Positions 1,609 to 59,763 of a DNA stretch of 64,000 bases are shown here, piece after piece; within the stretch, counting starts at the first letter, position 1; every line of letters starts with the position of its first letter. This DNA is from Candidatus Heimdallarchaeum aukensis (lineage in GTDB: Archaea > Asgardarchaeota > Heimdallarchaeia > Heimdallarchaeales > Heimdallarchaeaceae), in contig CP084166.1 of NCBI GenBank assembly GCA_021513695.1, positions 2,848,001 through 2,912,000 of the forward strand, given 5' to 3'. A program made the translations under genes and the position numbers. The notes under the pieces are model-generated. The model had not been told where the DNA came from, searched no databases, and worked only from the letters and a program-made list of their open reading frames with translations.

Positions 1609-2685
1609 TTAAATAATTCTAGAACCGTTTACAAACTCGTTAAACCAAATATGGGCGTTGTGCCTGTCTGTATAAACAGGAGGAGCTTTAAAACCATAAG
1701 CACAGACGGAAGAAAGAGGACCTCCAACAGCTCGGTTAATAGCTATTTTCACACCTCGAATGACATCAAATAGGGTCGCAGCTCCATTAGGTCCATCTAA
1801 TGTTTCTAAACGAATGTCAATCTTAATAGGTGTTCCAATAAATGTCTCTCCATAGATCCAAAAATGACCAATACGACGATTACCAAGAAACTCAAGATAG
1901 TCAGAAGTCCCAGAAGCAATATTGATCTGACCTTGAAAAGCGTTTTTTATTGTATTTTCTTTTACTGTACGCTTGTAAGCTTTACGGTCGTCATCTAAAG
2001 TGTTTAGAGTTTCTAATCCTCCACTAACATCTAGTTGATAAGTATCTTTAATCCTGATTCCTTGTTCTGTCAAAATTTCTAAAATACCCTTATGGAGAAC
2101 AGTGCCACCATATAGGCTTTGAAGATCGTCTCCAACTAATGGAATATTAGCTTGACGGAATTTACGAGCCCAAAGAGGGTCACTAGCAATGAAAGTGGGA
2201 GTACAGTTAACAAAAGCAATCTCTGCATCTAAAGCAGCTTGAGCATAAAATTCTACAGCTTTTTCTGCACCAGTAGGTAAAGCGCAAATTAACATCTCTG
2301 CTCCAGATTCTCTCAAACGTTGCACAACATCTACCTCAGGGGAGTCAGAAACCTCAATAACATCAGCTAAAGTACCAGTAATGCCATCTAAAACAGGACC
2401 TTTTTCAACAATTACACCAGAAGGTGAAAGTTCAAGAAACTTAGGGGTGCTGTTAATCGATGCAAAAATTGCCTCAGAAAGATCTTTACCTACTTTAGTT
2501 TTATCTACATCGAAAGCACCTACAATATGAATAGTATTCACTCCATAGTTAGCCATTGAGGGATGTAGCAAGTTATTACAAGCATCTTTGTTCTTACGTA
2601 AATATTCAATCCCTTGAACTAAACCAGATGCAATGTTACCAACACCAGCAATAGCGACATTAATACGTTTTTCCATAATAATCAC
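1609..2685 (-). CDS. myo-inositol-1-phosphate synthase family protein, divergent paralog
   Basis: N-terminal NAD-binding AIAGVGNIASGLVQG. GDDLQSLYGGT aligns to the MIPS GDD(F)KSGQT block but has K->Q. About 40% identity by eye to the adjacent paralog. Confidence 0.6.
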   Translation of the reverse strand: MIIMEKRINVAIAGVGNIASGLVQGIEYLRKNKDACNNLLHPSMANYGVNTIHIVGAFDVDKTKVGKDLSEAIFASINSTPKFLELSPSGVIVEKGPVLDGITGTLADVIEVSDSPEVDVVQRLRESGAEMLICALPTGAEKAVEFYAQAALDAEIAFVNCTPTFIASDPLWARKFRQANIPLVGDDLQSLYGGTVLHKGILEILTEQGIRIKDTYQLDVSGGLETLNTLDDDRKAYKRTVKENTIKNAFQGQINIASGTSDYLEFLGNRRIGHFWIYGETFIGTPIKIDIRLETLDGPNGAATLFDVIRGVKIAINRAVGGPLSSVCAYGFKAPPVYTDRHNAHIWFNEFVNGSRII

Positions 2686-2690
2686 CTTAA

Positions 2691-3773
2691 CTAATTAGAA
2701 ACCTCCCCTTTGATAAATTTCTCAACAAGATCATGTGCAATAGGGTCAGGAATTTGCTTGGGAGGATGTTTGAAGAAGTAACTAGAAACACTCTCTAATT
2801 TTCCACCTATCCCACGATCTTTAGCAATCTTAAGAGCTCGAACAACATCAATCATAACTCCTGCAGAATTAGGAGAATCTTGAACACTAAGTTTAAGTTG
2901 AACAGTTATTGGTTGTTCACCGAAATTCTTTCCTTTAAGCCACAAATAACAAACTTTCTCATCTTCTAGGAAAGGAACATAATCACTTGGACCAATACGA
3001 GTAGGAACTTCATAAGGAATCATACTAGTAACAGCTTCAGTTTTAGAGACACGTTTTGTTTGTAGTCGATACTCTTTTTTCATATTTTCAAAATCAGTGT
3101 TTCCTCCAACGTTCAATTGAAAAGTTTCATCGATCTTTATTCCTCGCTCATGAGCAAGACGGACAAGCATACGATGAAGAATAGTTGCACCTAATTGAGA
3201 TTTTATGTCATCTCCCGCTACTGGTACGCCTTTTTCTGCAAATTTTGCAGCCCATTCTTCATTACTTGCTATAAAAGCAGGAATACCATTAGCAAAGGCA
3301 ACGTTTGCATCAAGTGCTGCTTGAGCATATATTTTTGTAGCTTCTTCAGAACCAACAGGTAAGAAATTTATTAATACATCTGTTTTAGTTTCTTTCAAAA
3401 CTTTAGCTACATCTACAGGTTTAATTTCGTTCTCATCATAACAATAGAATGATTCTCTCATGTGTGGGGCTACACCATCAGAAATGGGGCCAGGCAATAC
3501 AGTTACTCCCTTGTGTGGTACGTCAGCAAACTTATTGCACACGTTGGGTGGTTGCCAAATTGCTTCAGAAATATCTTTCCCTATTTTCATTTTATTAACT
3601 TCGAACGCTGCTACCACTTCTACATCTCTAATGTGATAAGGTCCGAACTTTACGTGCATGATTCCAGGAACAAAATCATCTTCTTTGGCATTTTTGTAAT
3701 ATTCTAATCCTTGAATTAGCGCTGAAGCGCAATTTCCTAGTCCAGCAATCGCAATTCTTACTTTTTCTGTCAT
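2691..3773 (-). CDS. myo-inositol-1-phosphate synthase (archaeal type)
   Basis: IAIAGLGNCASALIQG Rossmann start. AGDDIKSQLGAT...NVGGNTDFENM matches the eukaryotic/archaeal MIPS GDDFKSGQT...NHLGNNDG catalytic block. 360 aa. Confidence 0.75.
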   Translation of the reverse strand: MTEKVRIAIAGLGNCASALIQGLEYYKNAKEDDFVPGIMHVKFGPYHIRDVEVVAAFEVNKMKIGKDISEAIWQPPNVCNKFADVPHKGVTVLPGPISDGVAPHMRESFYCYDENEIKPVDVAKVLKETKTDVLINFLPVGSEEATKIYAQAALDANVAFANGIPAFIASNEEWAAKFAEKGVPVAGDDIKSQLGATILHRMLVRLAHERGIKIDETFQLNVGGNTDFENMKKEYRLQTKRVSKTEAVTSMIPYEVPTRIGPSDYVPFLEDEKVCYLWLKGKNFGEQPITVQLKLSVQDSPNSAGVMIDVVRALKIAKDRGIGGKLESVSSYFFKHPPKQIPDPIAHDLVEKFIKGEVSN

Positions 3774-10313: not shown

Positions 10314-10622
10314 TTATTTTAACAAGTCTTCTTCTTCAGGAAGTCGAACAGTATCAATGATTTGCTCACCAACTACGACTTCATCAACACTGTGGATGGA
10401 ACAACCATAGTCGCGTAAAGTTTCTTCTATTAGTTCATAGTCTAAATCTTGTCCAACCATAGTGACGATTATCCCTTCAGTACTTCTATCAGTTTCAGTT
10501 CGAATGATATTAATAGAATCTAACCCCTCAAGTTTGCCTAGATCAAGAGCTAAGACGTCTATTCTAGGCTGATGAGGTTTCAAAACGTCCAATACTAATC
10601 TTCTAATTCTTGGATCCTTCAT
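10314..10622 (-). CDS. DUF211-like small archaeal protein
   Basis: 102 aa. IRRLVLDVLKPH...HSVDEVVVGE pattern is typical of the archaeal DUF211/COG1888 family as I recall it. No enzymatic motif. Confidence 0.4.
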   Translation of the reverse strand: MKDPRIRRLVLDVLKPHQPRIDVLALDLGKLEGLDSINIIRTETDRSTEGIIVTMVGQDLDYELIEETLRDYGCSIHSVDEVVVGEQIIDTVRLPEEEDLLK

Positions 10623-10725: not shown

Positions 10726-11523
10726 TTATTTAGAAAGTTTTAGTTTGAAAATTCCTGGAAAGTAATACTGACCCGTTTCTTCATCCTCAACTGCCAAACC
10801 AATCTCTGCCATCTTAGACAAAGTATCAACCGCACGCTCTGAAGACCAACCTAAATGTGATACAAGAATATCTCTAGTCAAAAATTCTAACCCTGTAGCT
10901 AACTGAAGAACAGCGCGAAAATCAGAAGAAGTTTCTAAAGGCTTGAATCTGATTAATACTTCATCATTTCCAAGATCAATTTCAGGTGGAATAACTTTAT
11001 CTTTCTGTAGAGAACGAATAGCTCGAATAATATGACTGGGACTAACTTCCCAGTTAGGACGAGTCTCCTTGAAATAATCAATGAAATTACCTAAAGTAAT
11101 AGCTCCACCAAATTCTTCTAATTCCTCATTACCTATTATTAGTATTTCTTGTCTAAGTTTTTGTTCGAAACCTTTACTGCCAAAAAGAACAGGAGTTTTC
11201 ATTTTTCCTGCAGTACCAATTGAACCAGTAAGTCCAGCTTGTTCTCGCAATTGCATGATTTTGTTAACTAAAAGTTTCGAAGACTTTAGAAGCTTCTTTG
11301 AATCCTTTTCAACTTTAATAATTCCTTCTTTAAGAATCTCTTTTCGTTTTTGTTTATCTTTCTCCTGAGTGGAAACTAAATCAGTATCAAACGCTTTATA
11401 CGCTTGTGAAAGAGAAGAACGAAAATCTTCATCAGAAATTTCTCTAACTTCCTTTTTTTCGTCTTCTGTTTCTTTCTTTCCTTTTCTTTTACCCATCAGT
11501 ATCAAGAGAAAATAAACAAGCAT
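10726..11523 (-). CDS. ESCRT-II Vps22/EAP30-like protein (tandem winged helix)
   Basis: C-terminal 150 aa align by eye to human VPS22/EAP30. Matching pairs: IIRAIRSLQKDK vs LIRAIKKLKALG, DFRAVLQLATG vs DHTVVLQLAEK, WSSERAVDTLSKMAEIGLA...YYFPGIF vs WETERARQVLEHLLKEGLA...HYWLPALF. Lys/Glu-rich N-terminus. Confidence 0.6.
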   Translation of the reverse strand: MLVYFLLILMGKRKGKKETEDEKKEVREISDEDFRSSLSQAYKAFDTDLVSTQEKDKQKRKEILKEGIIKVEKDSKKLLKSSKLLVNKIMQLREQAGLTGSIGTAGKMKTPVLFGSKGFEQKLRQEILIIGNEELEEFGGAITLGNFIDYFKETRPNWEVSPSHIIRAIRSLQKDKVIPPEIDLGNDEVLIRFKPLETSSDFRAVLQLATGLEFLTRDILVSHLGWSSERAVDTLSKMAEIGLAVEDEETGQYYFPGIFKLKLSK

Positions 11524-11751
11524 TATTTAAAAAACTATTCAATTCGAAAAATGAATGTTTTTTAAAATCTAAAAAATAATTAACCGTTTCTAGCAGCTCT
11601 AACCAATTTCTGTTAAATCCAAACATTAAAAACATTTGTAGCTAAAGAAGCTTTAAGTCTAAAGAATATTAAAATTAGGATTTAAAAATATAAAAACAAA
11701 AATCAAAAATAGTATTAATAAATTAGAACATAAATAAATAAACAATTTATA

Positions 11752-13119
11752 GTGATGCTTATGAAAAATATACAAATTACTGCTTACGGCGCAACCAACT
11801 TCGTAGGAAGAAGTGCTTTTACAATAAGCGATAAAGATAGAACAGTGATGTTAGACTGTGGAATAGAACTAGTGCCAAAGAAACTGTCTATAGCACCAAA
11901 GGGTGTAGATGCAATAGCCAAAAATGTAGACGCTTTTTTGCTCAGCCATGCACATATCGACCATTCAGGATATGTTCCTAAACTAGCTCAGAAAGGGTAT
12001 AAGGGAAAATTCTATATGACCCATCCAACAAAAGATATAGTTTTTAGATTATGGTTAGATCATCTGAAAATAGAGGGAGAAAGACATTGGACAGAAGATG
12101 ATCTGGATAAAACATTCAATAGAATAGTAACGAAAAAATATCATGAAAAATTCAAAATAGTAGATGGAATAACTGCAGAATTCATAAATGCTGGACATAT
12201 TTTAGGTGCAGCACAAATTTTAATAGATTGGGACGGGCAATTAATATTATATTCAGGAGATATAAACGACAGACAAACACCTTTCTTTGATGGATTTGAA
12301 TATCCTGAAGAAGAAGTAGATATACTAATTACAGAAAGTACAAATGGAGATAGATATGTCCCAGAGAGAAAAAAGATAGATGTAGGTTTTAGATTACTTT
12401 CAAAACAAGTAGCAGAAAGCGGAAATAAGATGCTTCTACCCAGTTTTGCAGTAGGAAGATCACAAGAACTACTAACAACTCTAGCTTTTGATGATGACAT
12501 CGACGATGTTCCAATATATACTGATGGAATGATAAATATGATGAATACTTTGACTGAAGCATATTTAACAAAAGATTGGGTGTCTGACAGATTTCTAAAA
12601 GAATTGAAAAGTAGAAAAATGAATTCACCATTTAATAAAGAGAATATTATCCCAATAAATAGAGCTCAATCTCCTCATCAATTCAGAAGACAAATAGCTA
12701 AAAGTAAAGAAGGAGCAATCATAGTAACAACTTCAGGAATGCTAGAAGGAGGACCAATACATACTTACTTGGATTACTGCGCAGGAAATGAAAATAACAC
12801 ACTAGGTTTCACAGGATATCAAGTAGAAGGAACAATAGGAAGAGAATTATACGATGGAGCAGAAGAAATAACAATATTTAACGATAGAAGATTCAACAAC
12901 CCGAAAAAAATAAAGGTAAAATGTAAAATAATGAAATTCCCGTATTCAGGACATAGTTCAGCAGAAGGACTAGCAAAATATGTGAAAAAAATAAATGCAA
13001 AGAAAGTTATTCTTGTCCATGGAATAGAAAAAAACCAATTGTATCTAAGAAACTTAATGAAAGAATATTCTCATCCAATAACTCTGGAAGAAAAAAAGCC
13101 AGAAACAATTAGAATATGA
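11752..13119 (+). CDS. metallo-beta-lactamase fold beta-CASP ribonuclease family protein
   Basis: LLSHAHIDHSGYVP HxHxDH motif near the N-terminus. 455 aa without a KH domain. Architecture resembles an aCPSF2/RNase J-like beta-CASP protein. Confidence 0.6.
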   Translation: MMLMKNIQITAYGATNFVGRSAFTISDKDRTVMLDCGIELVPKKLSIAPKGVDAIAKNVDAFLLSHAHIDHSGYVPKLAQKGYKGKFYMTHPTKDIVFRLWLDHLKIEGERHWTEDDLDKTFNRIVTKKYHEKFKIVDGITAEFINAGHILGAAQILIDWDGQLILYSGDINDRQTPFFDGFEYPEEEVDILITESTNGDRYVPERKKIDVGFRLLSKQVAESGNKMLLPSFAVGRSQELLTTLAFDDDIDDVPIYTDGMINMMNTLTEAYLTKDWVSDRFLKELKSRKMNSPFNKENIIPINRAQSPHQFRRQIAKSKEGAIIVTTSGMLEGGPIHTYLDYCAGNENNTLGFTGYQVEGTIGRELYDGAEEITIFNDRRFNNPKKIKVKCKIMKFPYSGHSSAEGLAKYVKKINAKKVILVHGIEKNQLYLRNLMKEYSHPITLEEKKPETIRI

Positions 13120-13416: not shown

Positions 13417-16068
13417 ATGAAAAGAATAACAACATATAGACAGTTAGGTTTGGTGCTAATATTAATAGCAACTACAACTTTCTTACTTTATCTTTCGACT
13501 CATAAAGAGGAAAATATGGTCCTGCAATCTAATAAAATAACAATAGATTCAATGTCTGGCGTAAATTCAGATGAAAATAGAACTGTAAAAAAAGCTTATT
13601 CAGTTCATTCTCCTATTCTTATTGAGTCTGATGATGATCTTACAGGTTTTCCAGGTTTAGGAACAAAGGATGACCCCTATGTCATTGAAAACTACAATAT
13701 AACTGACTCTACAACTCATGGTATAAAGATATCTGGGACTACAAAGTATATTCTTATTCACGATTGTTATCTTAATGGGGGAGGTTCAGGTTCATCATTT
13801 TATGGTATTTATATTGACTCTACTACAGATGGAACTATAACTGTGACTAACAACACAATAAGCAACTATGCTACTGGTATTTACCTTTCTTCTTGTTCTA
13901 ATAACTCCTTTACTTTTAATATAATAACGAATAGTAATAATGACGGCTTATATCTCTCTTCTAGCTCTAACAATACTTTTTCTTCTAATACAATAACAAA
14001 CAGTGACGATGATGGAATAACTATCTCTTTTAGTTCTGGTAACACACTCACATTTAATAATATAACAAATAATAACGGTGAGGGAATTTATTTTTCTTTT
14101 AGTTCAAATAATAACCTTGCTTCAAATATTATAGCAGAGAATATTAATTATGCAATAGATCTCTATTCTAGTTCAAGTAATACTTTTGTAAAAAACTTAT
14201 TTATCAAAAATAATCAAGGAGGTTCGTCTCAAGCTAGTGATAGTGGAACAATTAATAAATTCTATACTGATATAACTGGAAACTATTGGTATGATTGGAA
14301 TGGAACAGGAATATATGCGATAGATGGTTCAGCTAACAACTTTGATCCTTATCCTATGCATGTAGACCTTGATCGAGATGGTATGCCTGACAAATGGGAA
14401 GAAGATAATGGATTAAACACTAATATCAATGATTCTGCAGAAGATCTCGATAGTGACGGTTTAACTAATTTAGAAGAATACACTAGCAACACTAATCCTA
14501 ACTACTCTGACACTGATTCAGATGGCTTATCAGACGGAGAAGAGGTTCACACTTATTTTACTGATCCACTTGATTTTGATACTGACGATGATGGATTATT
14601 GGATGGTGAAGAAGTTAAAACCTATTCTTCAAATCCCAACAATCCAGATACTGATTCGGATGGTATGCCTGATGGTTGGGAGGTGAATTATGGTTTAAAC
14701 CCCTCAAATGATGAGTCTACAGAGGATTTTGATGGTGACGGTTTAAGTAACGTTGCTGAGTATTCTCACAATACTGACCCTACTAACCCTGATACTGATA
14801 ATGATGGCTTGTTCGACGGTCAGGAAATTAATACTTATGGTACTGATCCTACTAACCCTGATACTGACGGCGATGGTTTATCTGATGGCGAAGAGGTTGA
14901 TGTTTATGGTACAGACCCTCTTAATCCAGATACAGATAATGATGGTGTATCTGATGGTGAAGAAGTAAGTAAAGGAAAGAATCCAAAAGGTTCTTCTCTT
15001 TTTGCATATTTGTTCTCTTCACTTGCTAGTTCTATAATTACTATAATAGTTTTAGTGTTAGTAATTACAATCATTATCGCTTCTATAGTCGATATAATGA
15101 AGAAAAAAAAGAATAAACAGATGGATGAAACAAAGAAGCAAAAGATAACGAAAATAACGAAAAAAAAGAAAATAGGGTTGAAGTTCTTTAATGAGAAAAT
15201 AGATTCACTCGAAAATGAGTGGTCATGGGTAGAAAGAGAACAAAAAAGCGGTCAATCTTTATTCGATACAGCTTTTTCTGAGAAAATATCTGAACTATTT
15301 GTAGAATTAATTGAGACATTAATAGGATTTAATTACGCTTTTACAAAAGATGTAAAGTATCTAACAAACCTTGATTGGTTAAGCGCAAAAAAAAGACTAA
15401 ATAGCTTAGTTGACCAATTCAGAGCTTTATTGCTCAAAGAGCTAGAAGAAATTGATATTGATACAAAATTTGAAGAAATAAATAATGAATTGACAAAGAT
15501 AACTTTAGAAAATATTGAGAAACCCTCTGAAGATAAATTATTACAACCATTTGACGTTTTACTTGATACACTTGTAAAAATTGACAAGAATATAAGAAAA
15601 ACTGAGTCATTTATTGACGAATTCACTTTTTCTAAACTGACTTCTTACTGGGGAAAACTGTCTGACATTATAGTTACAGTAAAATCAGAAGTTGAAAATA
15701 AAAGAAGTGAGGTAAGGAAGAATATCAAAGAAGTAAAAGAAGTATTTACTGATAAAAGGATGAACCTTGAAAGGTTAGAGACCCTTAATAAAGTAGTTTC
15801 AGTCTATAAACAGATTTCACTTTCCAAACTAGCTTACTTGCTCAAATTTTCATCTAACTCTGCCCTAATTTACTGGATGTCAAAGCAAAATTTGGATTTT
15901 TCTTATAGGATTGTTGATGATGAGATAATTTTTGAAAAACAGGAAGAAGGAGAAAAAGAAGAAGGAAAAGAAGAAATAGAATACGATAGTGAAGTGGCTG
16001 ATGCAATAGACTCTCTATTAAGACAATACGATGAATGGTCAAAAGGTGATGAAGGAAAAAAGATTTAA
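13417..16068 (+). CDS. type I membrane surface protein with parallel beta-helix repeats, nine TSP3-like Ca-binding repeats, one TM helix and a long cytoplasmic tail
   Basis: N-terminal signal/TM LGLVLILIATTTFLLYL. PbH1-like repeats such as NNTISNYATGIYLSSCSNNSF and ITNSNNDGLYLSS. Nine DxDxDGxxDxxE repeats, for example DTDSDGLSDGEEV. TM helix IITIIVLVLVITIIIASIV followed by KKKKNK. 340-aa coiled-coil tail ending in a winged-helix-like LSKLAYLLKFSSNSALIYWMSKQ. Confidence 0.7.
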   Translation: MKRITTYRQLGLVLILIATTTFLLYLSTHKEENMVLQSNKITIDSMSGVNSDENRTVKKAYSVHSPILIESDDDLTGFPGLGTKDDPYVIENYNITDSTTHGIKISGTTKYILIHDCYLNGGGSGSSFYGIYIDSTTDGTITVTNNTISNYATGIYLSSCSNNSFTFNIITNSNNDGLYLSSSSNNTFSSNTITNSDDDGITISFSSGNTLTFNNITNNNGEGIYFSFSSNNNLASNIIAENINYAIDLYSSSSNTFVKNLFIKNNQGGSSQASDSGTINKFYTDITGNYWYDWNGTGIYAIDGSANNFDPYPMHVDLDRDGMPDKWEEDNGLNTNINDSAEDLDSDGLTNLEEYTSNTNPNYSDTDSDGLSDGEEVHTYFTDPLDFDTDDDGLLDGEEVKTYSSNPNNPDTDSDGMPDGWEVNYGLNPSNDESTEDFDGDGLSNVAEYSHNTDPTNPDTDNDGLFDGQEINTYGTDPTNPDTDGDGLSDGEEVDVYGTDPLNPDTDNDGVSDGEEVSKGKNPKGSSLFAYLFSSLASSIITIIVLVLVITIIIASIVDIMKKKKNKQMDETKKQKITKITKKKKIGLKFFNEKIDSLENEWSWVEREQKSGQSLFDTAFSEKISELFVELIETLIGFNYAFTKDVKYLTNLDWLSAKKRLNSLVDQFRALLLKELEEIDIDTKFEEINNELTKITLENIEKPSEDKLLQPFDVLLDTLVKIDKNIRKTESFIDEFTFSKLTSYWGKLSDIIVTVKSEVENKRSEVRKNIKEVKEVFTDKRMNLERLETLNKVVSVYKQISLSKLAYLLKFSSNSALIYWMSKQNLDFSYRIVDDEIIFEKQEEGEKEEGKEEIEYDSEVADAIDSLLRQYDEWSKGDEGKKI
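14365..14967 (+). repeat. in-frame tandem coding repeats encoding thrombospondin type 3-like calcium-binding motifs
   Basis: Repeated nucleotide blocks. cctactaaccctgatactgataatgatggc at ~14776 matches cctactaaccctgatactgacggcgatggt at ~14845 with a period of ~69 bp. Encodes YGTDPxNPDTDxDGxSDGEEV units. Confidence 0.7.
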
Positions 16069-34236: not shown

Positions 34237-37200
34237 TCACGCCATGCGTATTATCCCCTCACGAGGAGAATAGAGTTCACCATTTTCTCTTAATTGTCTA
34301 ATTACTTTGTCTACAAAATCTCCGTCTATTGAGTACTCTTTTTCAGCAATTTGTTTAACTTTGTTAATAGAAACCTCATTGGAAAAACCTTTCTTCGTTT
34401 CTTCTTTTATAATATCGATAACTTTTTGGAGATTACTTCGTTCACTTCTTGATGTTCCTTGTAAAAAGTAATCTACATCTACTTTTCCAGTTACTGGGTC
34501 TCGTCCTACTTGTTGTAGGGATTCTGTAAGAAGACGAATAGCTGCTTCAGCATGATCAATTGTTACATCTTCTTTTAGAGCCATTCTTGCTTGTGCTTCT
34601 GAAAGACGAATAATGGCTTCTAAATACCTGGGTGTAATAGCAATAGATTTTTTGTCTGATTGTTTTCTGAGATCAAGATAGAATTTTTCTATTCTACGCA
34701 TAGCTTCATCAGTTAATGAAGGTTCAATGTTTTGTTTAGCATAACTAATATATTTTCTTAAAAGATCCATAGAAATAGGAGGTTCTGCAGTAGCTGATAT
34801 TTGTCCTCTTCTTAATTCTAAAATATGTCTAGCCATATTAAGGTCGCTGTCTGGTTCTGGAACATCACGCATAATGTAGATAAGATCAAAACGAGAAATA
34901 ATTGTAGCGGGTAGATTAATATTGTCAACTGGGTGAGAGTTTTCCTCATATCTACCAAATTTAGGGTTAGCAGCAGCAATAATAGCTGTTCTTGCATTAA
35001 GCTGAGCAACGATACCCGCCTTGGCTATGCTAACGGTATTGTGAAGTATTAGTCCCCCTGCAATGAAGGTTTTTGTTGGAATTACAGTAACATCATAAAC
35101 CCATTTTGCTTTAAATTTTCCTTTGTTCTCTATTATTTCAACGTTTTTAACTTTAAGCCATTTGAAATTTAGCATACTTTCAATATAGCTTATTTGATTG
35201 TTGACATAATTAATTTCTTCTTTTAGAAATTGCTTGATCTGAGAAAGAAGCGAAGTCCTAACTTGTACGGTGTAGCCCCCATTCTCACAGTAATCTATTG
35301 TTGAACGGGTACTTTTAATTAATCTTGCAATTCCTGCTTGTGAATAACCAACGAATTCTCTCAGTTCACGAACATTATTTATTTCATAGATTTTTTGGTT
35401 AATGATGTTAATTCTTCTTTTTAATTTCTCTAATTCTCGTTCTACAACAAATTTTGCAATACTATTGTTAAATTTAATATTACCATAGAATCTTCCATTA
35501 TATACCATTCCTAGTCTTTTCATGCAATCAATTAAGCTGATTGCTGTTTCGACTGGTAAAACATCTCTTTTTTTGTGGTTTGCTTTAGTTCTGCTAATGA
35601 ATTTTTTTATTTTTGGATTGTCAGAATGGTGTGGAATAATTTTCCTTACAAAATTATCTAGACTTTCTGCTAAAATATAAACTTTATATCTATATTTTGT
35701 TTTTTTACTTTTGGGCGTTGTATACTTACTTTTATGTATTATAGTAAAGATATCTAGACTTAAGAGTAAATCTTGGTAGTCAACTGCAAGCAATTTTGAA
35801 GAAGTTGAAAAACTAACCGCTTCACTTTCTATTGATCCGTCACCATCAAAAGCAGCAGATAAGAAGGCAATCCGACAATCGTTATCTGCTTCAAATATTT
35901 TTTTAGGTATGCGCTTATAAATACTCTTTTTCATTAACTCTGGGAAATTTTTTGCCATAAAATTATACAATGATTTAGATATGATGCGTAAGACACGTCT
36001 TTTTTCAACGTTATCAATTGGTTCAATACCAAAAGTTGACTTAATAATTTCCTTCATTTCTGATACTATTTTTGGATCATAATTACTTAATCCCACTTCC
36101 ATTGATGAACCACTATAAGAATAACCTTCTGAAACGAAAAAGCCTAAAAACTTGGCTAAAGAGGTATTCATTTTTGTTGGTAGTCGAATTTTTTTATTTC
36201 CTAGTGAGATATCAGTATCTAAAGTGCTATTTGTATTAAAAACTAGATTTTTTACAGCTGGTATAAAGGATCCTTTTTTAACATTTTCAGCAGCTATTTC
36301 TCTTATGATCCCTTTGTGAAAAACGAAGATTGGGTGTTCTGGTGTTACAACAATATCTCTACCATTAGAATATGTGATTTTAATAAAATAGTCTGGTGCT
36401 GTATGACGACTGACACGGTCAATAATTATCGGAAAAGTGTCTTTGAAATCAGTTGTTTGAATGTTGATATTTAAATCTGAAATAGGTAAAATCTCACAAT
36501 TAATACCGTTAACTTTGCGTTCCGGATACTTATCAAATAAAGAATCTACTAGTGAACCAATTTGTGTTACAGTTCCATCAGATAATCTAATTTCAAACAT
36601 AGGATGAAAAGAATGCTGTTCCATAGCTTCATGTATAGCTGAACGATCATGTGCAGTCATTTTGTCGAATTCATCAATTGTGGCTAAACCACGATCTGCC
36701 AGTACTAAAGCTCCCGCTTCCAAAGAAAACTCTCCTGTGTCAGGGTCTCTAACTACTGCTGCAGTGTTGTGAGTAATAAACCCATTAACTATAAAATTGT
36801 GCGTTTGTGGGACAGTTAAGTCATAAACATATTCATCTTCTTTTTCGATAAATTCAACTTTAGTTACTTCATCCCAAAATATTTCGCTTGAAAGGAGCGA
36901 TTCTATAAGTTTAATATCTTGCTTCAACTCAGTGTTTGTTTTACAACTTGATTTAATTTCGCTGATGATACTCTCAATTTCTTTTTTATTGCTATTCTTA
37001 AAATCCAAAATTATGTTGTTATTAAAACTAAGGGTTGTGTTATTACAAAGATTGATTTTTTCTATTAATTCACCTAATAGTTGTTCTATGCAAGAAGCTA
37101 CTTTTCCATCTACTAAACTATCCTTTAAGTCTTTAGAATTTCTTTCTTTAGGGTTAATTGTTCCAACTAAATCTCCTTTAATCAAATCTTTAGCTTTTAT

Positions 37201-38637
37201 CCATACTATTCCTCTCTCTGAAAGAGTGAGAAGAGGAGTCTGTTGAGTTAATTTAATTGTCCTACCACTTTTAGATGAAATCTTTACTAATAAACGAGGA
37301 CTTTTGATTTTCCAGAATTTTTCAATTTTAGCAGAATTGATTTTTAAGTTAGAAGAATTTAAAATAGAATTATAATTTGAATCTGTTTCTAGATTATTTT
37401 CAACAAACCAGAAACCTTCTTGGTATTCTTGTGGTTTGTTGTTTTTAAACTCTCTTTCTACAATGTTTACTATTTTTTCAACCTTATTTTCAAAATATAT
37501 TTCACTATCTGCTGCAACACATAGTCCTGCTGCTGAACTTGCTCGCCCTGAAGTAAAAATACCTCGGGGAGCTAATCTGTTTGCAAAATGAAGAAGTTGG
37601 CTTTTTCCTACACCAGGATCACCAACTAATAATAGATTTGATTCTCCTCTCTGTTTCATTCCATCCGGTGTAACTCTGGAAACTCCTCCAAAGAGTACAG
37701 TAGCAATTGCCTCTTTGATGATTTCATGACCGTAGATAGAGGGAGCGATTGAACGAATGATTTTGTTATGAATGTTAATGTCTCTGGAAAGTTCTAGAAT
37801 CTCTTTTTCGGTGTCAGGATCAATTTCTAATTCTTCGAATTCCTTCTGTCTAGATGCAGCAAAATTGACCTCTAACCAAGGATCAAAAGTAGCCAACTGT
37901 TTCTTTTTTTGTTGTAAAGACGGTTTCATTCTAAGAATACCGTTAACAATTGCTCTATCTCCTGCTCTAACAACATCTACTAAATCTCCAACTAAGTATG
38001 CAGGAAGAGAGCGAGGAATTTGACCAGGAGGAAGGTTTTCTGGCTTTTCTTGAATAGTAATTGTCTGGATATCAGTGTAAGATGATTCTTCTGGAAGGAG
38101 CTTGAAAGGACCTTTTTTTCCACAATCGGGGTTACTACACTGGACAGGTTCAGAATAATAACCTAAATCTTGATCCCAGCTCATTATCTCCCCACAACGG
38201 GTACACTGGAAAACTCCTTGAATAAGAAGAGGTTTGACAACAGATTGACGAAGAACAATACCTTCAACCGAAATAAATTTCCCTAAATGAGTAGCTCGAA
38301 CATGACGTAGATCAACTATGTCCGGGATGTTTGCAAATCTTACTTTGAACCATTGTCTATTTTCTTGTGCATAACTCAAATCTTCTATAGAAATGACTTC
38401 AAAAAGTGCTTCATCTGCATCTTGAAACATAGTTTCAGGTTCGTCTCTAATCATCTGTGCAAGTCCAGGGTCATAACGCAAAATGTCATCATAATTGACA
38501 TAGAGAGAAGTTAAGCCCTCTAAAACCATCTTCTGAATTTGTTCAGTGTAAACATATCTACCATTTTCGTCCATGTAACCTTGAAAAAACTCTTTGAATC
38601 GTTCTGAATACCCTTTTGCAGTTGTATCAATATGCAT
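34237..38637 (-). CDS. mcm: MCM replicative helicase precursor containing two inteins
   Basis: N-terminal Zn finger CTRCGEIMSW...CSNPDCG. P-loop GDPGVGKSQ. GRASSAAGL|C...HN|TAAVVRD and IDEFDKM...EAMEQH|S...HN|TVSIAKAGI mark intein junctions. Extein sum is 689 aa. C-terminal winged helix. Confidence 0.9.
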   Translation of the reverse strand: MHIDTTAKGYSERFKEFFQGYMDENGRYVYTEQIQKMVLEGLTSLYVNYDDILRYDPGLAQMIRDEPETMFQDADEALFEVISIEDLSYAQENRQWFKVRFANIPDIVDLRHVRATHLGKFISVEGIVLRQSVVKPLLIQGVFQCTRCGEIMSWDQDLGYYSEPVQCSNPDCGKKGPFKLLPEESSYTDIQTITIQEKPENLPPGQIPRSLPAYLVGDLVDVVRAGDRAIVNGILRMKPSLQQKKKQLATFDPWLEVNFAASRQKEFEELEIDPDTEKEILELSRDINIHNKIIRSIAPSIYGHEIIKEAIATVLFGGVSRVTPDGMKQRGESNLLLVGDPGVGKSQLLHFANRLAPRGIFTSGRASSAAGLCVAADSEIYFENKVEKIVNIVEREFKNNKPQEYQEGFWFVENNLETDSNYNSILNSSNLKINSAKIEKFWKIKSPRLLVKISSKSGRTIKLTQQTPLLTLSERGIVWIKAKDLIKGDLVGTINPKERNSKDLKDSLVDGKVASCIEQLLGELIEKINLCNNTTLSFNNNIILDFKNSNKKEIESIISEIKSSCKTNTELKQDIKLIESLLSSEIFWDEVTKVEFIEKEDEYVYDLTVPQTHNFIVNGFITHNTAAVVRDPDTGEFSLEAGALVLADRGLATIDEFDKMTAHDRSAIHEAMEQHSFHPMFEIRLSDGTVTQIGSLVDSLFDKYPERKVNGINCEILPISDLNINIQTTDFKDTFPIIIDRVSRHTAPDYFIKITYSNGRDIVVTPEHPIFVFHKGIIREIAAENVKKGSFIPAVKNLVFNTNSTLDTDISLGNKKIRLPTKMNTSLAKFLGFFVSEGYSYSGSSMEVGLSNYDPKIVSEMKEIIKSTFGIEPIDNVEKRRVLRIISKSLYNFMAKNFPELMKKSIYKRIPKKIFEADNDCRIAFLSAAFDGDGSIESEAVSFSTSSKLLAVDYQDLLLSLDIFTIIHKSKYTTPKSKKTKYRYKVYILAESLDNFVRKIIPHHSDNPKIKKFISRTKANHKKRDVLPVETAISLIDCMKRLGMVYNGRFYGNIKFNNSIAKFVVERELEKLKRRINIINQKIYEINNVRELREFVGYSQAGIARLIKSTRSTIDYCENGGYTVQVRTSLLSQIKQFLKEEINYVNNQISYIESMLNFKWLKVKNVEIIENKGKFKAKWVYDVTVIPTKTFIAGGLILHNTVSIAKAGIVAQLNARTAIIAAANPKFGRYEENSHPVDNINLPATIISRFDLIYIMRDVPEPDSDLNMARHILELRRGQISATAEPPISMDLLRKYISYAKQNIEPSLTDEAMRRIEKFYLDLRKQSDKKSIAITPRYLEAIIRLSEAQARMALKEDVTIDHAEAAIRLLTESLQQVGRDPVTGKVDVDYFLQGTSRSERSNLQKVIDIIKEETKKGFSNEVSINKVKQIAEKEYSIDGDFVDKVIRQLRENGELYSPREGIIRMA
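35038..36612 (-). mobile_element. intein 2 in MCM (525 aa, Ser1...His-Asn, +1 Thr) with LAGLIDADG homing endonuclease domain
   Basis: Insertion inside the conserved EAMEQ(Q/H)-TISIAKAGI block. Starts SFHPMF, ends AGGLILHN. LAGLIDADG-like motifs LAKFLGFFVSEGY and IAFLSAAFDGDGSI. Confidence 0.8.
36766..37521 (-). mobile_element. intein 1 in MCM (252 aa, Cys1...His-Asn, +1 Thr), mini-intein or degenerate endonuclease
   Basis: Insertion between the conserved MCM residues SSAAGL and TAAVVRD. Starts CVAADSEIYF, ends FIVNGFITHN. No clear LAGLIDADG pair. Confidence 0.8.
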
Positions 38638-42529: not shown

Positions 42530-43315
42530 TTGAGTTATATGTTTCCCAATGCAGTTCAACCACAAAAAAATCTTCTACCTTTTGGTATTCCAAGTTTAGA
42601 TGAAATTCTAGGAGGAGGTATTCCAACAGGTTCTATAGTCTTAATAGAAGATGAAATAGGTGCAGAGGCTAATCCATTTATTTTACAGTTTTTAGCTGAA
42701 GGATTAAAAGCAGGTCAATATGGATATATTATGGCAACAGAACACCCATATGAATACTTTTCTGAAATGTTATCAGGAATAGGCGTTAATACAGACATGC
42801 TTAAAGCTACAGGAAGATTGAAATATATTGATGCTTTCTCCAATCCCTTTGGATATACTGACCTTCGTTCTGAACATGATCTTGCAGTAAGAAATATTAG
42901 TCAACCACGTGAATTAAATGAAATTATAAGAAGAGCTTTTCTTCATGTGAGAGATCAAAATGTAATCAAAAGAGGAATTGTAAGCTCGCTATCATCTATT
43001 ATTTATGCTACTGATGAATCAAAGAAGACGATTTTTTCTTTCTTACAAAATAGACTCGCAAGCAATAAACTTGATGGCTCAGTAACTCTATTCTCTTTGC
43101 ATTATGATGCACATCCAAGGTTACTAGTTAAAGCTATAGAACACTTGAGTGACGTAACAATCAGAGTGAAAAAAGGTTTCACAAAAGAAGAACGACCTCT
43201 AAACGAAGTACAAGTAATCAATATTAAAGGTAAACCCGAACTTGCCGGGGAAAGTGTACAATTTGAGTTCATTTCTGGAAAAATTATCCCATATTATGAA
43301 GAAAACCTATTCTAG
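42530..43315 (+). CDS. KaiC/RecA-like domain protein lacking a P-loop (pseudo-ATPase)
   Basis: LPFGIPSLDEILGGGIPTGSIVLIEDEIGAEANPFILQFLAEGLKAGQYGYIMATEHP matches the KaiC-like start (GIPGLDELLGGG...G). The Walker A GxxGxGKT position reads EDEIGAEA. 261 aa, overlapping the downstream GTPase ORF. Confidence 0.55.
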   Translation: MSYMFPNAVQPQKNLLPFGIPSLDEILGGGIPTGSIVLIEDEIGAEANPFILQFLAEGLKAGQYGYIMATEHPYEYFSEMLSGIGVNTDMLKATGRLKYIDAFSNPFGYTDLRSEHDLAVRNISQPRELNEIIRRAFLHVRDQNVIKRGIVSSLSSIIYATDESKKTIFSFLQNRLASNKLDGSVTLFSLHYDAHPRLLVKAIEHLSDVTIRVKKGFTKEERPLNEVQVINIKGKPELAGESVQFEFISGKIIPYYEENLF

Positions 43316-43937
43316 TTTTGATCAAAGTATTTTTTTTTCATTTATTAACACCATTAGATTTATTAATTTAGATTGTTTGTTTTATTTGATAAGTTTGTCA
43401 TTCGATTATTTGTTCAAGACAATAATTGTTGGAGACCCAAATGTTGGAAAAACTTCAATTACACTCCGATTTTCAACTGGAACTTTTAGAGAAAGATATC
43501 TTTTTACTATAGGCGTAGAATTTAGTGTTAAAGATATTGAAGTCGATGGAAACAAGGTAAAAATTCAAGCTTGGGACACTGGAGGACACGATAAATATTC
43601 CTATATTCGTCCGTTGTATTATAAGGGGTCATATGGAACATTAATTGTTTATGACATTACCAACAAAGCATCATTTGAAAATTTGAATAAATGGTTTAAA
43701 GAAGTATATGATAACTGTGAAACAACAATTCCTGCTATTCTAGTTGGAAATAAAAACGATTTGGAAGAACAGAGAGAAGTAACAAGAGAAGAAGCTTTAA
43801 AATACGCAGAAGAAATGAGTAAAGAATATAATTTGGAAAATATTCCTTATTTTGAAACTTCAGCAAAAACAGGTGAAAACGTCGACGATATCTATTTTGA
43901 ACTAACAAGATTAATGATTAAAAAATCAAACATGTGA
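43296..43937 (+). CDS. Rab/Ras-like small GTPase with His at the catalytic Gln position
   Basis: G1 GDPNVGKTS. Rab-like switch I YLFTIGVEF. G3 WDTGGHD, where canonical is DTAGQE. G4 GNKND, G5 ETSAKT. Start is ambiguous: Met at 43296, an upstream Met at 43242, or an internal TTG. There is a ~50-aa N-terminal extension before G1. Confidence 0.8.
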   Translation: MKKTYSSFDQSIFFSFINTIRFINLDCLFYLISLSFDYLFKTIIVGDPNVGKTSITLRFSTGTFRERYLFTIGVEFSVKDIEVDGNKVKIQAWDTGGHDKYSYIRPLYYKGSYGTLIVYDITNKASFENLNKWFKEVYDNCETTIPAILVGNKNDLEEQREVTREEALKYAEEMSKEYNLENIPYFETSAKTGENVDDIYFELTRLMIKKSNM

Positions 43938-59130: not shown

Positions 59131-59763
59131 TTATTCTTTCAGAAATGGTAATATCCTCAAAGCTTTTGAAATTATGTTCGCAATACCCCCCATTATTTTT
59201 GCTATAGCTACAACAAGTTCTGCTTGTTGCCACGAGTAATTATTCGATAGAACATTGTATTGAATTAAGCGTATGTGTTCATTTACTGCGAATTCTAGTT
59301 CTCCCAGATGCCAGCTTTTATCGTTTTTTTCTTTTTTTGAACTAAAATTAGCTACCTCTTTTACAAAGAAGTTGACAGAATAACTTACAGTTTTATTTAG
59401 AGAAATAAGTTCATCCATTGCTATGTTTGAAAGTTCATACTGTTTAATAGAAAAAAAAGAGTGTAGAAGATAAAATTTAGAAGAAACTTCTTTCAAATAA
59501 GTAAAAAATGTTTCATACATAAACAAAGTCTTGTTATCTTTAATGACGCTATTTGCTAAAACAAACGATATTTCATCGATGAAACGATGAACATTTTCGT
59601 AATACTGTTTCATTATTATACTTCTTTCCTCAAAATTTGGAAGAAAATATAAAGTTTGAGAAATTAATTCTTCCATTCTTTCAAAAGTTGTAGCAGCGAT
59701 ACTAGAACATTGAAGTAAAGAGTTAATAAAATTAAGTTTATTCTTGACTTCTTTTTTCCCCAT
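59131..59763 (-). CDS. hypothetical protein
   Basis: 210-aa ORF, helical, no recognisable motif. Confidence 0.3.
   Translation of the reverse strand: MGKKEVKNKLNFINSLLQCSSIAATTFERMEELISQTLYFLPNFEERSIIMKQYYENVHRFIDEISFVLANSVIKDNKTLFMYETFFTYLKEVSSKFYLLHSFFSIKQYELSNIAMDELISLNKTVSYSVNFFVKEVANFSSKKEKNDKSWHLGELEFAVNEHIRLIQYNVLSNNYSWQQAELVVAIAKIMGGIANIISKALRILPFLKE

What the first reader, a model, noticed from the sequence alone, without database searches (positions are those of the whole stretch)
10726..11523. Stand-alone ESCRT-II Vps22/EAP30 homolog away from any ESCRT cluster
The C-terminal tandem winged helices align closely by eye to human VPS22. This is a eukaryotic signature protein known in Asgard archaea. 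No Vps25, Vps28, ESCRT-III or Vps4 gene is visible in this 64-kb window, and the protein has an extended Lys/Glu-rich N-terminus. It may be dispersed from the main ESCRT locus or may act in a different context.
Basis: partly seen in the sequence, partly recalled or inferred. Interest (0 to 1): 0.55.

Follow-up and report, generated by a model that had tools for sequence, protein, structure and literature searches.

The report
Second, stand-alone Vps22-like ESCRT-II paralog
The gene really does encode a eukaryote-like ESCRT-II Vps22/EAP30 protein away from any ESCRT cluster, but it is a separate sister copy found across Heimdall-group archaea next to an RNA-cutting enzyme gene, while the copy closest to eukaryotic Vps22 stays inside the ESCRT cluster in relatives.

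Summary
Window 10726-11496 (-) encodes a 256-aa EAP30/Vps22-family protein. It matches Pfam PF04157 at 43 bits (cutoff 26.8), and the best sequence and fold matches are human and yeast Vps22. No other ESCRT gene lies in the 64 kb. The source is Ca. Heimdallarchaeum aukensis, where GenBank already calls it "EAP30/Vps36 family".

The gene is not simply "the" Vps22 moved out of its cluster. It belongs to a distinct paralog clade (99% bootstrap) that is only 25-29% identical to the cluster-encoded Vps22 of close relatives. Both copies occur together in AB_125 and in MAG GCA_964514425.1. Profile comparisons put the cluster copy closer to eukaryotic Vps22.

The stand-alone copy was found in 33 species genomes and never within 10 kb of an ESCRT gene. 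In 29 of 32 assessable loci it is divergently paired with a KH-less CPSF73-like beta-CASP nuclease gene. It is under purifying selection (dN/dS 0.10).

The AB_125 ortholog is already listed in the supplementary table of Makarova et al. 2024, but I found no description of the subfamily or its nuclease linkage. I could not establish where, or whether, H. aukensis encodes Vps4, Vps25 and ESCRT-III. Interest is moderate.

The parts
10726..11496 (-). Coding sequence of the stand-alone Vps22/EAP30-like protein (256 aa, stop codon included)
   Evidence: ORF. PF04157 at 43 bits. 100% identical to the GenBank protein of Ca. Heimdallarchaeum aukensis. dN/dS 0.098 against H. endolithica.
11497..11523 (-).
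   Evidence: Homologs and the GenBank model start at MGK.... A TATA-like box lies immediately upstream of and abuts this ATG.
11434..11496 (-). Residues 1-21: disordered Lys/Glu-rich tail
   Evidence: pLDDT 40-44. Variable in the family alignment. dN/dS 0.54 for the first 30 codons. Has no counterpart in canonical Vps22.
11239..11433 (-). Residues 22-86: long N-terminal helical region (helices 22-65, 67-72, 74-86)
   Evidence: AF2 model. From about residue 55 it aligns with the helical domain of canonical Asgard Vps22. The EAP30 profile matches from residue 42.
11179..11238 (-). Residues 87-106: linker with the family-conserved IGTAGK...P..FG motif
   Evidence: Invariant G94, T95, G106 and nearly invariant G97, P102, F105. 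Lower pLDDT.
10948..11178 (-). Residues 107-183: winged-helix domain 1
   Evidence: AF2 secondary structure H107-125, E132-134, H135-145, H153-165, E173-176, E179-183, with pLDDT 82-93. Aligned to SNF8.
10753..10947 (-). Residues 184-248: winged-helix domain 2, ending in the conserved YYFPG motif
   Evidence: AF2 H191-200, H208-215, H219-231, E236-238, E243-245. Aligned to SNF8 WH2. Invariant W217, Y244, F246, P247.
11524..11531 (-). TATA-like box (TTTAAATA) about 30 nt upstream of the ATG at 11496; inferred promoter element
   Evidence: Read directly from the sequence. The function is inferred, not tested.
11497..11760 (.). AT-rich intergenic region shared with the divergent beta-CASP gene (putative bidirectional promoter region)
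   Evidence: Sequence. The divergent arrangement, with a gap of roughly 150-340 bp, is conserved in 29 of 32 assessable species loci.
11761..13119 (+). Conserved divergent neighbour: KH-less CPSF73/aCPSF-type beta-CASP ribonuclease (452 aa; arCOG00541 'YSH1' for the AB_125 ortholog)
   Evidence: Pfam Lactamase_B_6, Beta-Casp and RMMBL. Matches the aCPSF1 model at positions 174-630 only, below cutoff. PDB best hits are archaeal CPSF and human CPSF73. Annotation of the AB_125 neighbour.

Best explanation
SHOWN. The gene encodes a 256-aa member of the EAP30/Vps22 family. Its layout is a disordered Lys/Glu tail, a helical N-domain, a conserved Gly-rich linker and two winged-helix domains. It belongs to a distinct paralog lineage of Heimdall-group Asgard archaea. 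That lineage is separate from the 'canonical' Vps22 encoded beside Vps25, Vps4 and ESCRT-III, and the two co-occur in at least two genomes. The canonical copy is the closer counterpart of eukaryotic Vps22. This copy is always outside ESCRT clusters, is almost always divergently paired with a CPSF73-like beta-CASP nuclease gene, and is under strong purifying selection.

INFERRED (most likely mechanism). It still works as an ESCRT-II-type scaffold. It would dimerise through its helical domain and WH1, with itself or with the canonical Vps22. Through its winged helices it would bind Vps25, and so link to ESCRT-III. That would give Heimdallarchaeales either a second ESCRT-II 'arm', analogous in role but not orthologous to eukaryotic Vps36, or an alternative ESCRT-II assembly. 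Expression would come from its own promoter, independent of the ESCRT operon. On this reading the beta-CASP linkage is most simply a preserved piece of ancestral gene order. In Heimdall LC_3 a beta-CASP|EAP30 pair sits at the edge of the ESCRT-III/Vps4/Vps25 operon.
For: Family membership: PF04157 above cutoff over almost the whole profile. The PDB sequence and profile hits that reach significance (E<=0.001) are all Vps22/SNF8. Two AF2 models (pLDDT 67.8 and 77.2) give Vps22 chains as the top three Foldseek hits, then Vps36, with everything else at least 400-fold weaker.

Paralogy: the window protein is 25-29% identical to cluster Vps22 of AB_125, L042 and L044, which are 68-72% identical to each other. 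In the compact NJ tree the stand-alone clade has 99% bootstrap and the Heimdallarchaeales cluster copies have 100%.

Co-occurrence: AB_125 has both copies. The stand-alone one is on contig 26 (L036), listed as As_001-p_00607 in the Makarova 2024 table. The cluster copy is HeimAB125_14050, listed as As_001-p_01331. MAG CAZEQQ01 has both as well (L033; L042).

Closer counterpart of eukaryotic Vps22: hhalign gives 262 for canonical vs eukaryotic, 148 for the window family vs eukaryotic, and 225 for the window family vs canonical, where the first ~57 columns do not align.

Context: no ESCRT gene within +-10 kb in 33 species loci or in the window, and beta-CASP is divergent-adjacent in 29 of 32 assessable loci.

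Selection: dN/dS 0.098.

LC_3 arrangement. Published Y2H data show that Asgard cluster-encoded Vps22 self-associates and contacts ESCRT-I (Hatano 2022, PMC9192718).
Against: No interaction was tested. Binding to Vps25, to canonical Vps22 or to membranes is inferred from fold conservation only. The N-terminal motif shared by canonical Asgard and eukaryotic Vps22 (MGxRxIE..., the basic H0 region) is absent, so membrane or partner contacts may differ. I could not find a Vps4 from the H. aukensis or H. endolithica chromosomes among the 120 best relatives of AB_125 Vps4, which extend down to 54% identity. I also found no second EAP30 from these genomes (both of limited sensitivity). The ESCRT partners assumed by this model are therefore not demonstrated in this genome. 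Wu et al. 2022 state only that VPS4, VPS22 and VPS25 are present. The tight, long-lived pairing with a nuclease gene fits a non-ESCRT role equally well. The trees are NJ on about 170 columns, and a larger 134-taxon tree gave weak support (22%) for the exact deep split.
Confidence: 0.6

Rival explanations
1. It is functionally the only Vps22 of this genome. Heimdallarchaeum has a single EAP30 gene that does the normal ESCRT-II job and is merely encoded away from the other ESCRT genes, which are dispersed or divergent.
For: Two searches returned only one EAP30 protein each from H. aukensis and H. endolithica. Hatano et al. 2022 report a single Vps22/36-like gene per Asgard genome and a 'less consistent' co-location of Vps22 with the cluster. 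Wu et al. 2022 list VPS22, VPS25 and VPS4 as present in these genomes.
Against: By descent it is the stand-alone paralog, not the cluster Vps22, and relatives keep both. The searches that found only one EAP30 rely on shared 5-mers and even missed sequences that were part of the query alignment, so absence is not shown. The out-of-cluster position is ancestral for this clade, not a recent dispersal.
Confidence: 0.2
2. It works with the neighbouring CPSF73-like beta-CASP ribonuclease in RNA 3'-end processing, transcription termination or RNA handling, and not in membrane remodelling. This would echo the non-endosomal roles of eukaryotic EAP30/ESCRT-II as ELL-associated proteins and in mRNA binding (from my own knowledge of the literature, not checked here).
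For: The divergent gene pair with a short shared intergenic region is conserved in 29 of 32 species loci. It survives down to 38-41% EAP30 identity, where other neighbours such as the OMPdecase-like gene and DUF211 have changed. In LC_2 a beta-CASP gene is 4 genes away. There are never ESCRT genes nearby. Tandem winged helices are also an RNA-binding architecture, and SelB WH domains are the next-best fold hits, though weak.
Against: All loci come from one order, so conserved synteny may be neutral. In LC_3 the same beta-CASP|EAP30 pair directly heads an ESCRT-III/Vps4/Vps25 operon, which suggests the nuclease simply marks the old cluster border. L039, L041 and the Hodarchaeales locus L008 lack the nuclease neighbour. 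There is no direct evidence of co-expression or interaction. The protein keeps the full Vps22 fold.
Confidence: 0.13
3. It is a generic winged-helix transcription regulator (MarR/TrmB/ArsR-like) that only superficially resembles Vps22.
For: It contains winged-helix domains. Weak Foldseek hits to Fur, MarR and MecI regulators exist at E>0.04.
Against: No wHTH regulator family appears in Pfam or NCBIfam even at E<=10. The EAP30 profile is matched end to end. Vps22 chains score about 5 orders of magnitude better than any regulator. hhalign probability to canonical Vps22 is 99.9%.
Confidence: 0.02

Closest known systems
Stand-alone 'EAP30/Vps22 family protein' of Heimdallarchaeota AB_125 (As_001-p_00607, asCOG cog.002769; supplementary table of Makarova et al. 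2024, mBio, PMC10936438)
   Same: Ortholog: 55% identical (L036). It has the same divergent beta-CASP 'YSH1' neighbour and the same lack of ESCRT neighbours. It is already flagged there as an ESCRT-system component.
   Different: Different genus. In the published table it shares one asCOG with the cluster Vps22 and is not singled out as a separate subfamily. In the papers I read, the nuclease linkage and its conservation are not discussed.
Canonical, cluster-encoded Asgard Vps22 (e.g. HeimAB125_14050, Lokiarch_37450, OdinLCB4_14290; Hatano et al. 2022, PMC9192718)
   Same: Same family and overall architecture: helical N-domain plus two winged helices, about 240 aa. hhalign probability 99.9%, E=5e-34.
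   Different: Only 25-29% identical. It falls in a separate clade at 99% bootstrap. It lacks the conserved MGxRxIE N-terminal segment and has a Lys/Glu tail instead. It is not next to Vps25, Vps28 or Vps23. It is more distant from eukaryotic Vps22. It has not been studied biochemically.
Eukaryotic VPS22/SNF8/EAP30 (PDB 2ZME, 3CUQ, 1U5T)
   Same: Best solved-structure match by sequence (E=8.6e-10 with the profile) and by fold (E about 1e-7 to 6e-9, 211-217 aligned columns). The tandem WH core and helical N-domain are shared.
   Different: About 22-26% identity. The N-terminal basic helix region is not conserved. Its archaeal genomic context is beside a nuclease gene. It is probably not the direct ortholog, since the cluster copy scores higher against eukaryotic Vps22.
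Eukaryotic VPS36/EAP45
   Same: Second EAP30-fold subunit of ESCRT-II. As a second paralog alongside Vps22, the window protein could play an analogous structural role. Vps36 chains are the 4th and 5th best fold hits.
   Different: It has no GLUE/PH or zinc-finger domains and is only 256 aa. The sequence profile does not detect Vps36 in the PDB at E<=1. In the tree the putative Vps36-like eukaryotic sequences group with the cluster copies, not with this clade.

Membership tests
EAP30/Vps22-Vps36 family (Pfam PF04157) | Significant match to the family profile above the curated threshold, over most of its length | tested here: met
   43 bits against a cutoff of 26.8, E=5.8e-11, profile positions 17-219 of 219. 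Precomputed PF04157 on 16 of 17 homologs.
EAP30/Vps22-Vps36 family (Pfam PF04157) | Architecture: N-terminal helical domain followed by two tandem winged-helix domains | tested here: met
   AF2 models show helices 22-86, WH1 at 107-183 and WH2 at 188-248, with pLDDT 82-94 in the WH domains. Full-length Foldseek alignment to Vps22 chains.
Vps22 (as opposed to Vps36, Vps25 or a generic wHTH regulator) | Best match is Vps22 by both sequence and fold, with no GLUE/PH/NZF domains | tested here: met
   The only significant PDB hits are SNF8/Vps22. Foldseek gives Vps22 at about 1e-7, Vps36 at 1e-4 and regulators above 0.04. PF04157 is the only Pfam domain.
Canonical Asgard Vps22 (cluster-encoded ESCRT-II subunit, as in Hatano 2022 and Makarova 2024) | Encoded in the ESCRT cluster, adjacent to Vps25 and co-directed with Vps28/Vps23-like genes | tested here: not met
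   No ESCRT gene in the 64-kb window or within +-10 kb in 33 orthologous loci. The canonical arrangement is seen instead in L042, L044, L045 and AB_125.
Canonical Asgard Vps22 (cluster-encoded ESCRT-II subunit, as in Hatano 2022 and Makarova 2024) | Groups by sequence with cluster-encoded Vps22 of the same order, and keeps the N-terminal MGxRxIE segment that aligns with the eukaryotic Vps22 N-terminus | tested here: not met
   Separate clade at 99% bootstrap. 25-29% identity, against 68-72% among the cluster copies. The N-terminal ~57 columns do not align, whereas canonical Vps22 aligns with eukaryotic Vps22 from the N-terminus.
ESCRT-II complex subunit (functional membership) | Binds Vps25, dimerises with an EAP30-fold partner, and bridges ESCRT-I and ESCRT-III on membranes | not testable with these tools
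   No complex prediction or experiment was possible. Published Y2H and SEC data concern the cluster-encoded paralog only.
ESCRT-II complex subunit (functional membership) | The partner genes (Vps25, ESCRT-III, Vps4) are present in the same genome | tested here: inconclusive
   No Heimdallarchaeum chromosome protein is among the 120 best relatives of AB_125 Vps4, which extend down to 54% identity. Wu et al. 2022 state that VPS4 and VPS25 are present but give no coordinates.
   No such Pfam or NCBIfam hit at E<=10.

The most novel reading that the evidence does not exclude
Heimdallarchaeales carry a deeply diverged second Vps22-like protein that has been uncoupled from the ESCRT operon and coupled, through a conserved bidirectional promoter region, to a CPSF73/Ysh1-like nuclease. 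On one reading it acts with that nuclease in RNA 3'-end processing or transcription termination, which would be an archaeal precedent for the nuclear and RNA-linked roles of eukaryotic EAP30/ESCRT-II. On another reading it makes ESCRT-II heteromeric, with two different EAP30-fold subunits, before eukaryotes arose. In Heimdallarchaeum it might even persist without a canonical ESCRT cluster.
Probability: 0.15. Interest if true: 0.75.

Novelty: new variant of a known kind. Interest (0 to 1): 0.4.

Why it matters
ESCRT-II in eukaryotes is built from two different EAP30-fold subunits (Vps22 and Vps36) plus two Vps25. Asgard archaea have been described as having a single Vps22/36-like gene that homodimerises (Hatano 2022).

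This analysis shows that Heimdallarchaeaceae have two well-separated EAP30 paralogs with different genomic wiring, and Kariarchaeaceae very likely do too (the two copies there were seen in different genomes). Heimdall LC_3 also has two EAP30 genes. These are the archaea usually placed closest to eukaryotes. The second copy must therefore be considered in any reconstruction of ESCRT-II evolution and in biochemical work. So far only the cluster copy has been expressed and tested.

The persistent pairing with a CPSF73-like nuclease gene gives a concrete hypothesis for a non-membrane role that can be tested cheaply.

The gene itself is already annotated, and its AB_125 ortholog is already tabulated. 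The advance is one of classification and context, not the discovery of a new kind of system.

Tried and rejected
1. Generic wHTH regulator: rejected.

2. Pseudogene or chance ORF: rejected by dN/dS 0.10 and 46 invariant alignment columns.

3. Alignment-mode search of the 5.8-billion-protein collection with a mixed EAP30 alignment. It returned only 14 proteins and missed members of its own query, so it says nothing about the absence of a second EAP30 in Heimdallarchaeum.

4. AB_125 Vps4 as a probe for the Heimdallarchaeum cluster. No hit came from the 3.08 or 3.33 Mb chromosomes in the top 120, so I could not locate or exclude the cluster.

5. Supplements of Wu et al. 2022 searched for ESCRT, VPS or Snf7 terms: nothing found.

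A1 was used instead, so distant members of the clade are under-sampled.

7. A 134-taxon NJ tree gave only 22% support for the exact deep split. It was replaced by a 31-taxon tree of sequences with known genomic context, which gave 99%.

8. I briefly thought that Hodarchaeales lack ESCRT yet keep this protein. I dropped the idea after reading the LC_3 table, which shows a full ESCRT operon.

9. Vps36 orthology of the stand-alone clade is not supported.

10. DUF211 (10314-10622) as a functional partner: the adjacency is limited to Heimdallarchaeum.

11. ESCRT neighbours in the most divergent loci (L035, L037-L039, L041): none found by phmmer or Pfam.
Full report
**Observation**

The window has an ORF at 10726..11523 on the minus strand, 265 aa.
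- Pfam assigns it to PF04157 (EAP30/Vps36 family) at E=5.8e-11 and 43 bits, above the curated cutoff of 26.8. The match covers profile positions 17-219 of 219.
- NCBIfam gives nothing meaningful.
- Against PDB sequences the best hit is human SNF8/VPS22 (2zme_A, E=3.9e-5).
- The first 30 residues of the likely protein contain 9 Lys/Arg and 9 Asp/Glu.

One detail needs correction. The protein most likely starts at the ATG at 11496 (MGKRKG..., 256 aa).
- This is the GenBank model.
- Homologs begin there.

**Source and surroundings**

The protein is 100% identical to a GenBank protein of Candidatus Heimdallarchaeum aukensis, named "EAP30/Vps36 family vacuolar-sorting protein". Logan contigs from the enrichment culture show the same gene order.

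Pfam scans of all ~53 ORFs show a typical Asgard chromosomal region. It contains MCM with inteins, GINS, Hel308, HerA/NurA, CDP-archaeol synthase, Rio2, LSM, deoxyhypusine synthase and a Ras-family GTPase.
- No Vps25, Vps28, Snf7 or MIT/Vps4 gene is present.
- A permissive re-scan of the unannotated ORFs found none either.
- tblastn with ESCRT proteins of Heimdall, Loki, Thor and Odin, plus two newly fetched clusters, found none.

The stand-alone claim holds for 10.7 kb on one side of the gene and 52.5 kb on the other.

**Fold**

Two AlphaFold2 models were built (mean pLDDT 67.8 with 17 sequences, 77.2 with 26). Both show:
- a disordered tail (residues 1-21);
- a long helical segment (22-86);
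- a linker;
- two winged-helix domains with pLDDT 82-94.

Foldseek against the PDB ranks human and yeast Vps22 chains first (E from 6e-9 to 2e-7, up to 217 aligned columns). Vps36 chains follow at 1e-5 to 6e-4. Everything else, including SelB, Fur and MarR-type winged helices, scores above 4e-3 in the first search and above 0.04 in the second. A profile of the family finds only SNF8/Vps22 in the PDB, not Vps36 or Vps25.

**It is a second paralog, not the cluster Vps22**

Seventeen close homologs (44-100% identity) were found, all from Heimdallarchaeia. In every genomic context I fetched, the gene is outside any ESCRT cluster and is divergently paired with the same beta-CASP nuclease gene.

This conflicted with Hatano et al. 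2022, who describe the ESCRT genes of Heimdallarchaeota as clustered and each Asgard genome as having a single Vps22/36-like gene. Their Supplementary Data 1 gives the AB_125 cluster proteins: ESCRT-IIIA (14010), ESCRT-IIIB (14020), Vps4 (14030), Vps25 (14040), Vps22 (14050) and Vps23_Vps28 (14070).

The cluster Vps22 (14050) is only 29% identical to the window protein. It is 68-72% identical to cluster-encoded EAP30 proteins of other Heimdallarchaeaceae.

Several lines show that the two copies co-occur.
- The supplementary table of Makarova et al. 2024 lists two cog.002769 "EAP30/Vps22 family" genes in AB_125. One lies in the cluster Vps24-Vps20-Vps4-Vps25 | Vps22-Vps28C-E2/Vps23. The other is on a different contig, divergent to an arCOG00541 "YSH1" beta-CASP exoribonuclease and followed by uridine phosphorylase. 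That is exactly the context I had found.
- My genome-collection scan independently recovered that AB_125 locus (L036, 55% identity).
- A second MAG, GCA_964514425.1 (contig prefix CAZEQQ01), has the stand-alone locus (L033). It also has a full canonical cluster with Snf7 x2, Vps4, Vps25, EAP30, UEV-Vps28, E1 and ubiquitin (L042). Its stand-alone copy carries one in-frame stop, at the codon of the otherwise invariant Ser73. This is either an assembly error or a pseudogene.
- Kariarchaeaceae show the same canonical cluster (L045). LC_2 and L037-type genomes carry a stand-alone copy with beta-CASP nearby.

**Relationships**

An exhaustive profile search of 1.84 billion representatives found 226 EAP30 relatives. 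A 134-taxon NJ tree separated the window family from canonical Asgard Vps22 and eukaryotic Vps22 and Vps36-like proteins, but with weak support for the exact split (22%).

A 31-taxon tree restricted to sequences whose genomic context I know gives much stronger support:
- 99% bootstrap for the stand-alone clade;
- 100% for the Heimdallarchaeales cluster copies;
- 99% for the split that places the stand-alone clade plus a Hodarchaeales Rpo6/S17e-linked protein on one side, and all cluster copies plus the eukaryotic sequences on the other.

Profile-profile scores agree with this.

| Comparison | hhalign score | E-value | Note |
|---|---|---|---|
| Canonical Asgard Vps22 vs eukaryotic Vps22 | 262 | 3e-38 | aligned from the N-terminus |
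| Window family vs canonical Asgard Vps22 | 225 | 5e-34 | first ~57 columns unaligned |
| Window family vs eukaryotic Vps22 | 148 | 2e-21 | |

The cluster copy, not this one, is the closer counterpart of eukaryotic Vps22. These are distance-based trees on about 170 columns, so the root and the timing of the duplication remain open.

**Conserved context**

The scan of one genome per GTDB species found 33 loci, nearly all labelled Heimdallarchaeota.
- tblastn shows the beta-CASP gene immediately upstream and divergent, with a gap of roughly 150-340 bp, in 29 of the 32 loci that have enough upstream DNA. This includes loci where EAP30 identity has dropped to 38-41%.
- In L035 the beta-CASP gene lies 2.6 kb downstream. 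L039 and L041 have none within 10 kb.
- No AB_125 Vps4, Vps25, ESCRT-III, Vps23/28 or ubiquitin homolog lies within +-10 kb of any locus.
- More sensitive phmmer and Pfam checks of the divergent loci agree.

The neighbour is a KH-less CPSF73/aCPSF-type nuclease. It matches only the catalytic part of the aCPSF1 model, below cutoff, and is about as close to human CPSF73 as to archaeal CPSF structures.

The downstream gene DUF211 is adjacent only in Heimdallarchaeum.

One further observation bears on interpretation. In Heimdall LC_3 one EAP30 gene is divergent to a beta-CASP gene and also heads an EAP30-Vps20-Vps24-Vps4-Vps25 operon. A second EAP30 lies by Rpo6/S17e, like my Hodarchaeales locus L008. 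The nuclease gene may therefore simply mark the ancestral border of the ESCRT cluster.

**Function**

The gene is under strong purifying selection. dN/dS between H. aukensis and H. endolithica is 0.098 overall, 0.067 for residues 31 to the end, and 0.54 in the low-complexity tail.

Because the complete Vps22 fold is retained, the most economical mechanism is an ESCRT-II-type scaffold that dimerises and binds Vps25. It would act as a second, separately regulated ESCRT-II subunit or as an alternative assembly. This step is inferred, not shown.

Three things weigh against it:
- the loss of the conserved N-terminal segment;
- the complete genomic uncoupling from ESCRT genes;
- the lasting pairing with a nuclease gene, which keeps an RNA-linked role alive as a rival (about 0.13).

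**What I could not settle**

Wu et al. 2022 state that VPS4, VPS22 and VPS25 occur in all their complete Asgard genomes, including Heimdallarchaeum, but give no coordinates, and the held supplements contain no such terms.

Using AB_125 Vps4 as a query, none of the 120 best hits comes from the 3.08 or 3.33 Mb Heimdallarchaeum chromosomes. Those hits extend down to 54% identity and include Loki and Kari sequences. I also found no second EAP30 from these genomes, but with insensitive tools.

So it remains open whether H. aukensis has a canonical cluster elsewhere, a very divergent one, or none. The first two cases fit the main explanation. The last would make the finding considerably more interesting.

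**Novelty and verdict**

The gene is annotated in GenBank, VPS22 is reported for this genome, and the AB_125 ortholog is tabulated as an ESCRT component in published supplementary data. As first stated, the finding is therefore essentially known.

In the papers I could search, I did not find the following described:
- that this is a separate, well-supported paralog clade of Heimdallarchaeales;
- that it co-occurs with the canonical Vps22;
- that it is the more distant of the two from eukaryotic Vps22;
- that it is persistently paired with a CPSF73-like nuclease gene.

I rate it a new variant of a known kind, of moderate interest (0.4).

Noticed in passing
L033:3637-4392 (MAG GCA_964514425.1, contig CAZEQQ010000099.1): The stand-alone EAP30 ortholog of this MAG has a single in-frame stop at the codon of the otherwise invariant Ser73 (...KELKS*RLL...). 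The reading frame continues intact afterwards. It is either an assembly error or a recent pseudogene in a genome that also has the canonical cluster copy.
   Followed up: partly
Makarova 2024 suppl. table, Heimdall LC_3 contig As_003-n_00006, 51522..57507: In LC_3 an EAP30 gene is divergent to a 465-aa beta-CASP gene and also heads an EAP30-Vps20-Vps24-Vps4-Vps25 operon. A second EAP30 lies beside Rpo6/S17e. This suggests that the beta-CASP|EAP30 pair is the ancestral edge of the ESCRT cluster. I could not obtain the sequence to classify this copy.
   Followed up: partly
window 34237-38637 (-): A 1466-aa MCM gene interrupted by intein sequences (Intein_splicing in two stretches plus a LAGLIDADG homing-endonuclease domain). 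The related MAG in L007 has an even longer MCM (2196 aa) with more intein segments.
   Followed up: no
window 42530-43937 (+): A KaiC-like ATPase with a PAXNEB (Elp4-like) match overlaps by about 70 nt a Ras-family small GTPase gene (181 bits to PF00071). KaiC-like ATPase genes also recur a few genes from the stand-alone EAP30 in many related loci and next to the Hodarchaeales EAP30-like gene (L008).
   Followed up: partly
window 1609-3773 (-): Two tandem paralogs of myo-inositol-1-phosphate synthase next to a polyprenyl synthetase gene. The arrangement is conserved in H. endolithica and more distant Heimdallarchaeaceae (L003, L005, L006).
   Followed up: no
window 13417-16068 (+) and 48980-50458 (-): Two secreted-looking NosD/right-handed beta-helix proteins. 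The first has six bacterial TSP3 calcium-binding repeats. In H. endolithica the corresponding gene is much larger (2162 aa), so this locus is variable between the two species.
   Followed up: no
window 47204-49018 (+): An Eco57I/MmeI-type N6-adenine DNA methyltransferase with a TaqI-like specificity domain (a type IIG-like restriction-modification gene), placed directly after a pyruvate:ferredoxin oxidoreductase operon.
   Followed up: no
window 52898-54853 (-), 56639-57781 (+), 59131-59763 (-): Three sizeable ORFs (651, 380 and 210 aa) with no Pfam match even at E<=5. They were not examined further.
   Followed up: no
(Vps4 search) versus Wu et al. 2022: No Vps4 from the complete Heimdallarchaeum chromosomes appears among the 120 best relatives of AB_125 Vps4, although Vps4 proteins of other Asgard classes do (54-59% identity). 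This is at odds with the expectation for a family-level relative and with the published statement that VPS4 is present.
   Followed up: partly
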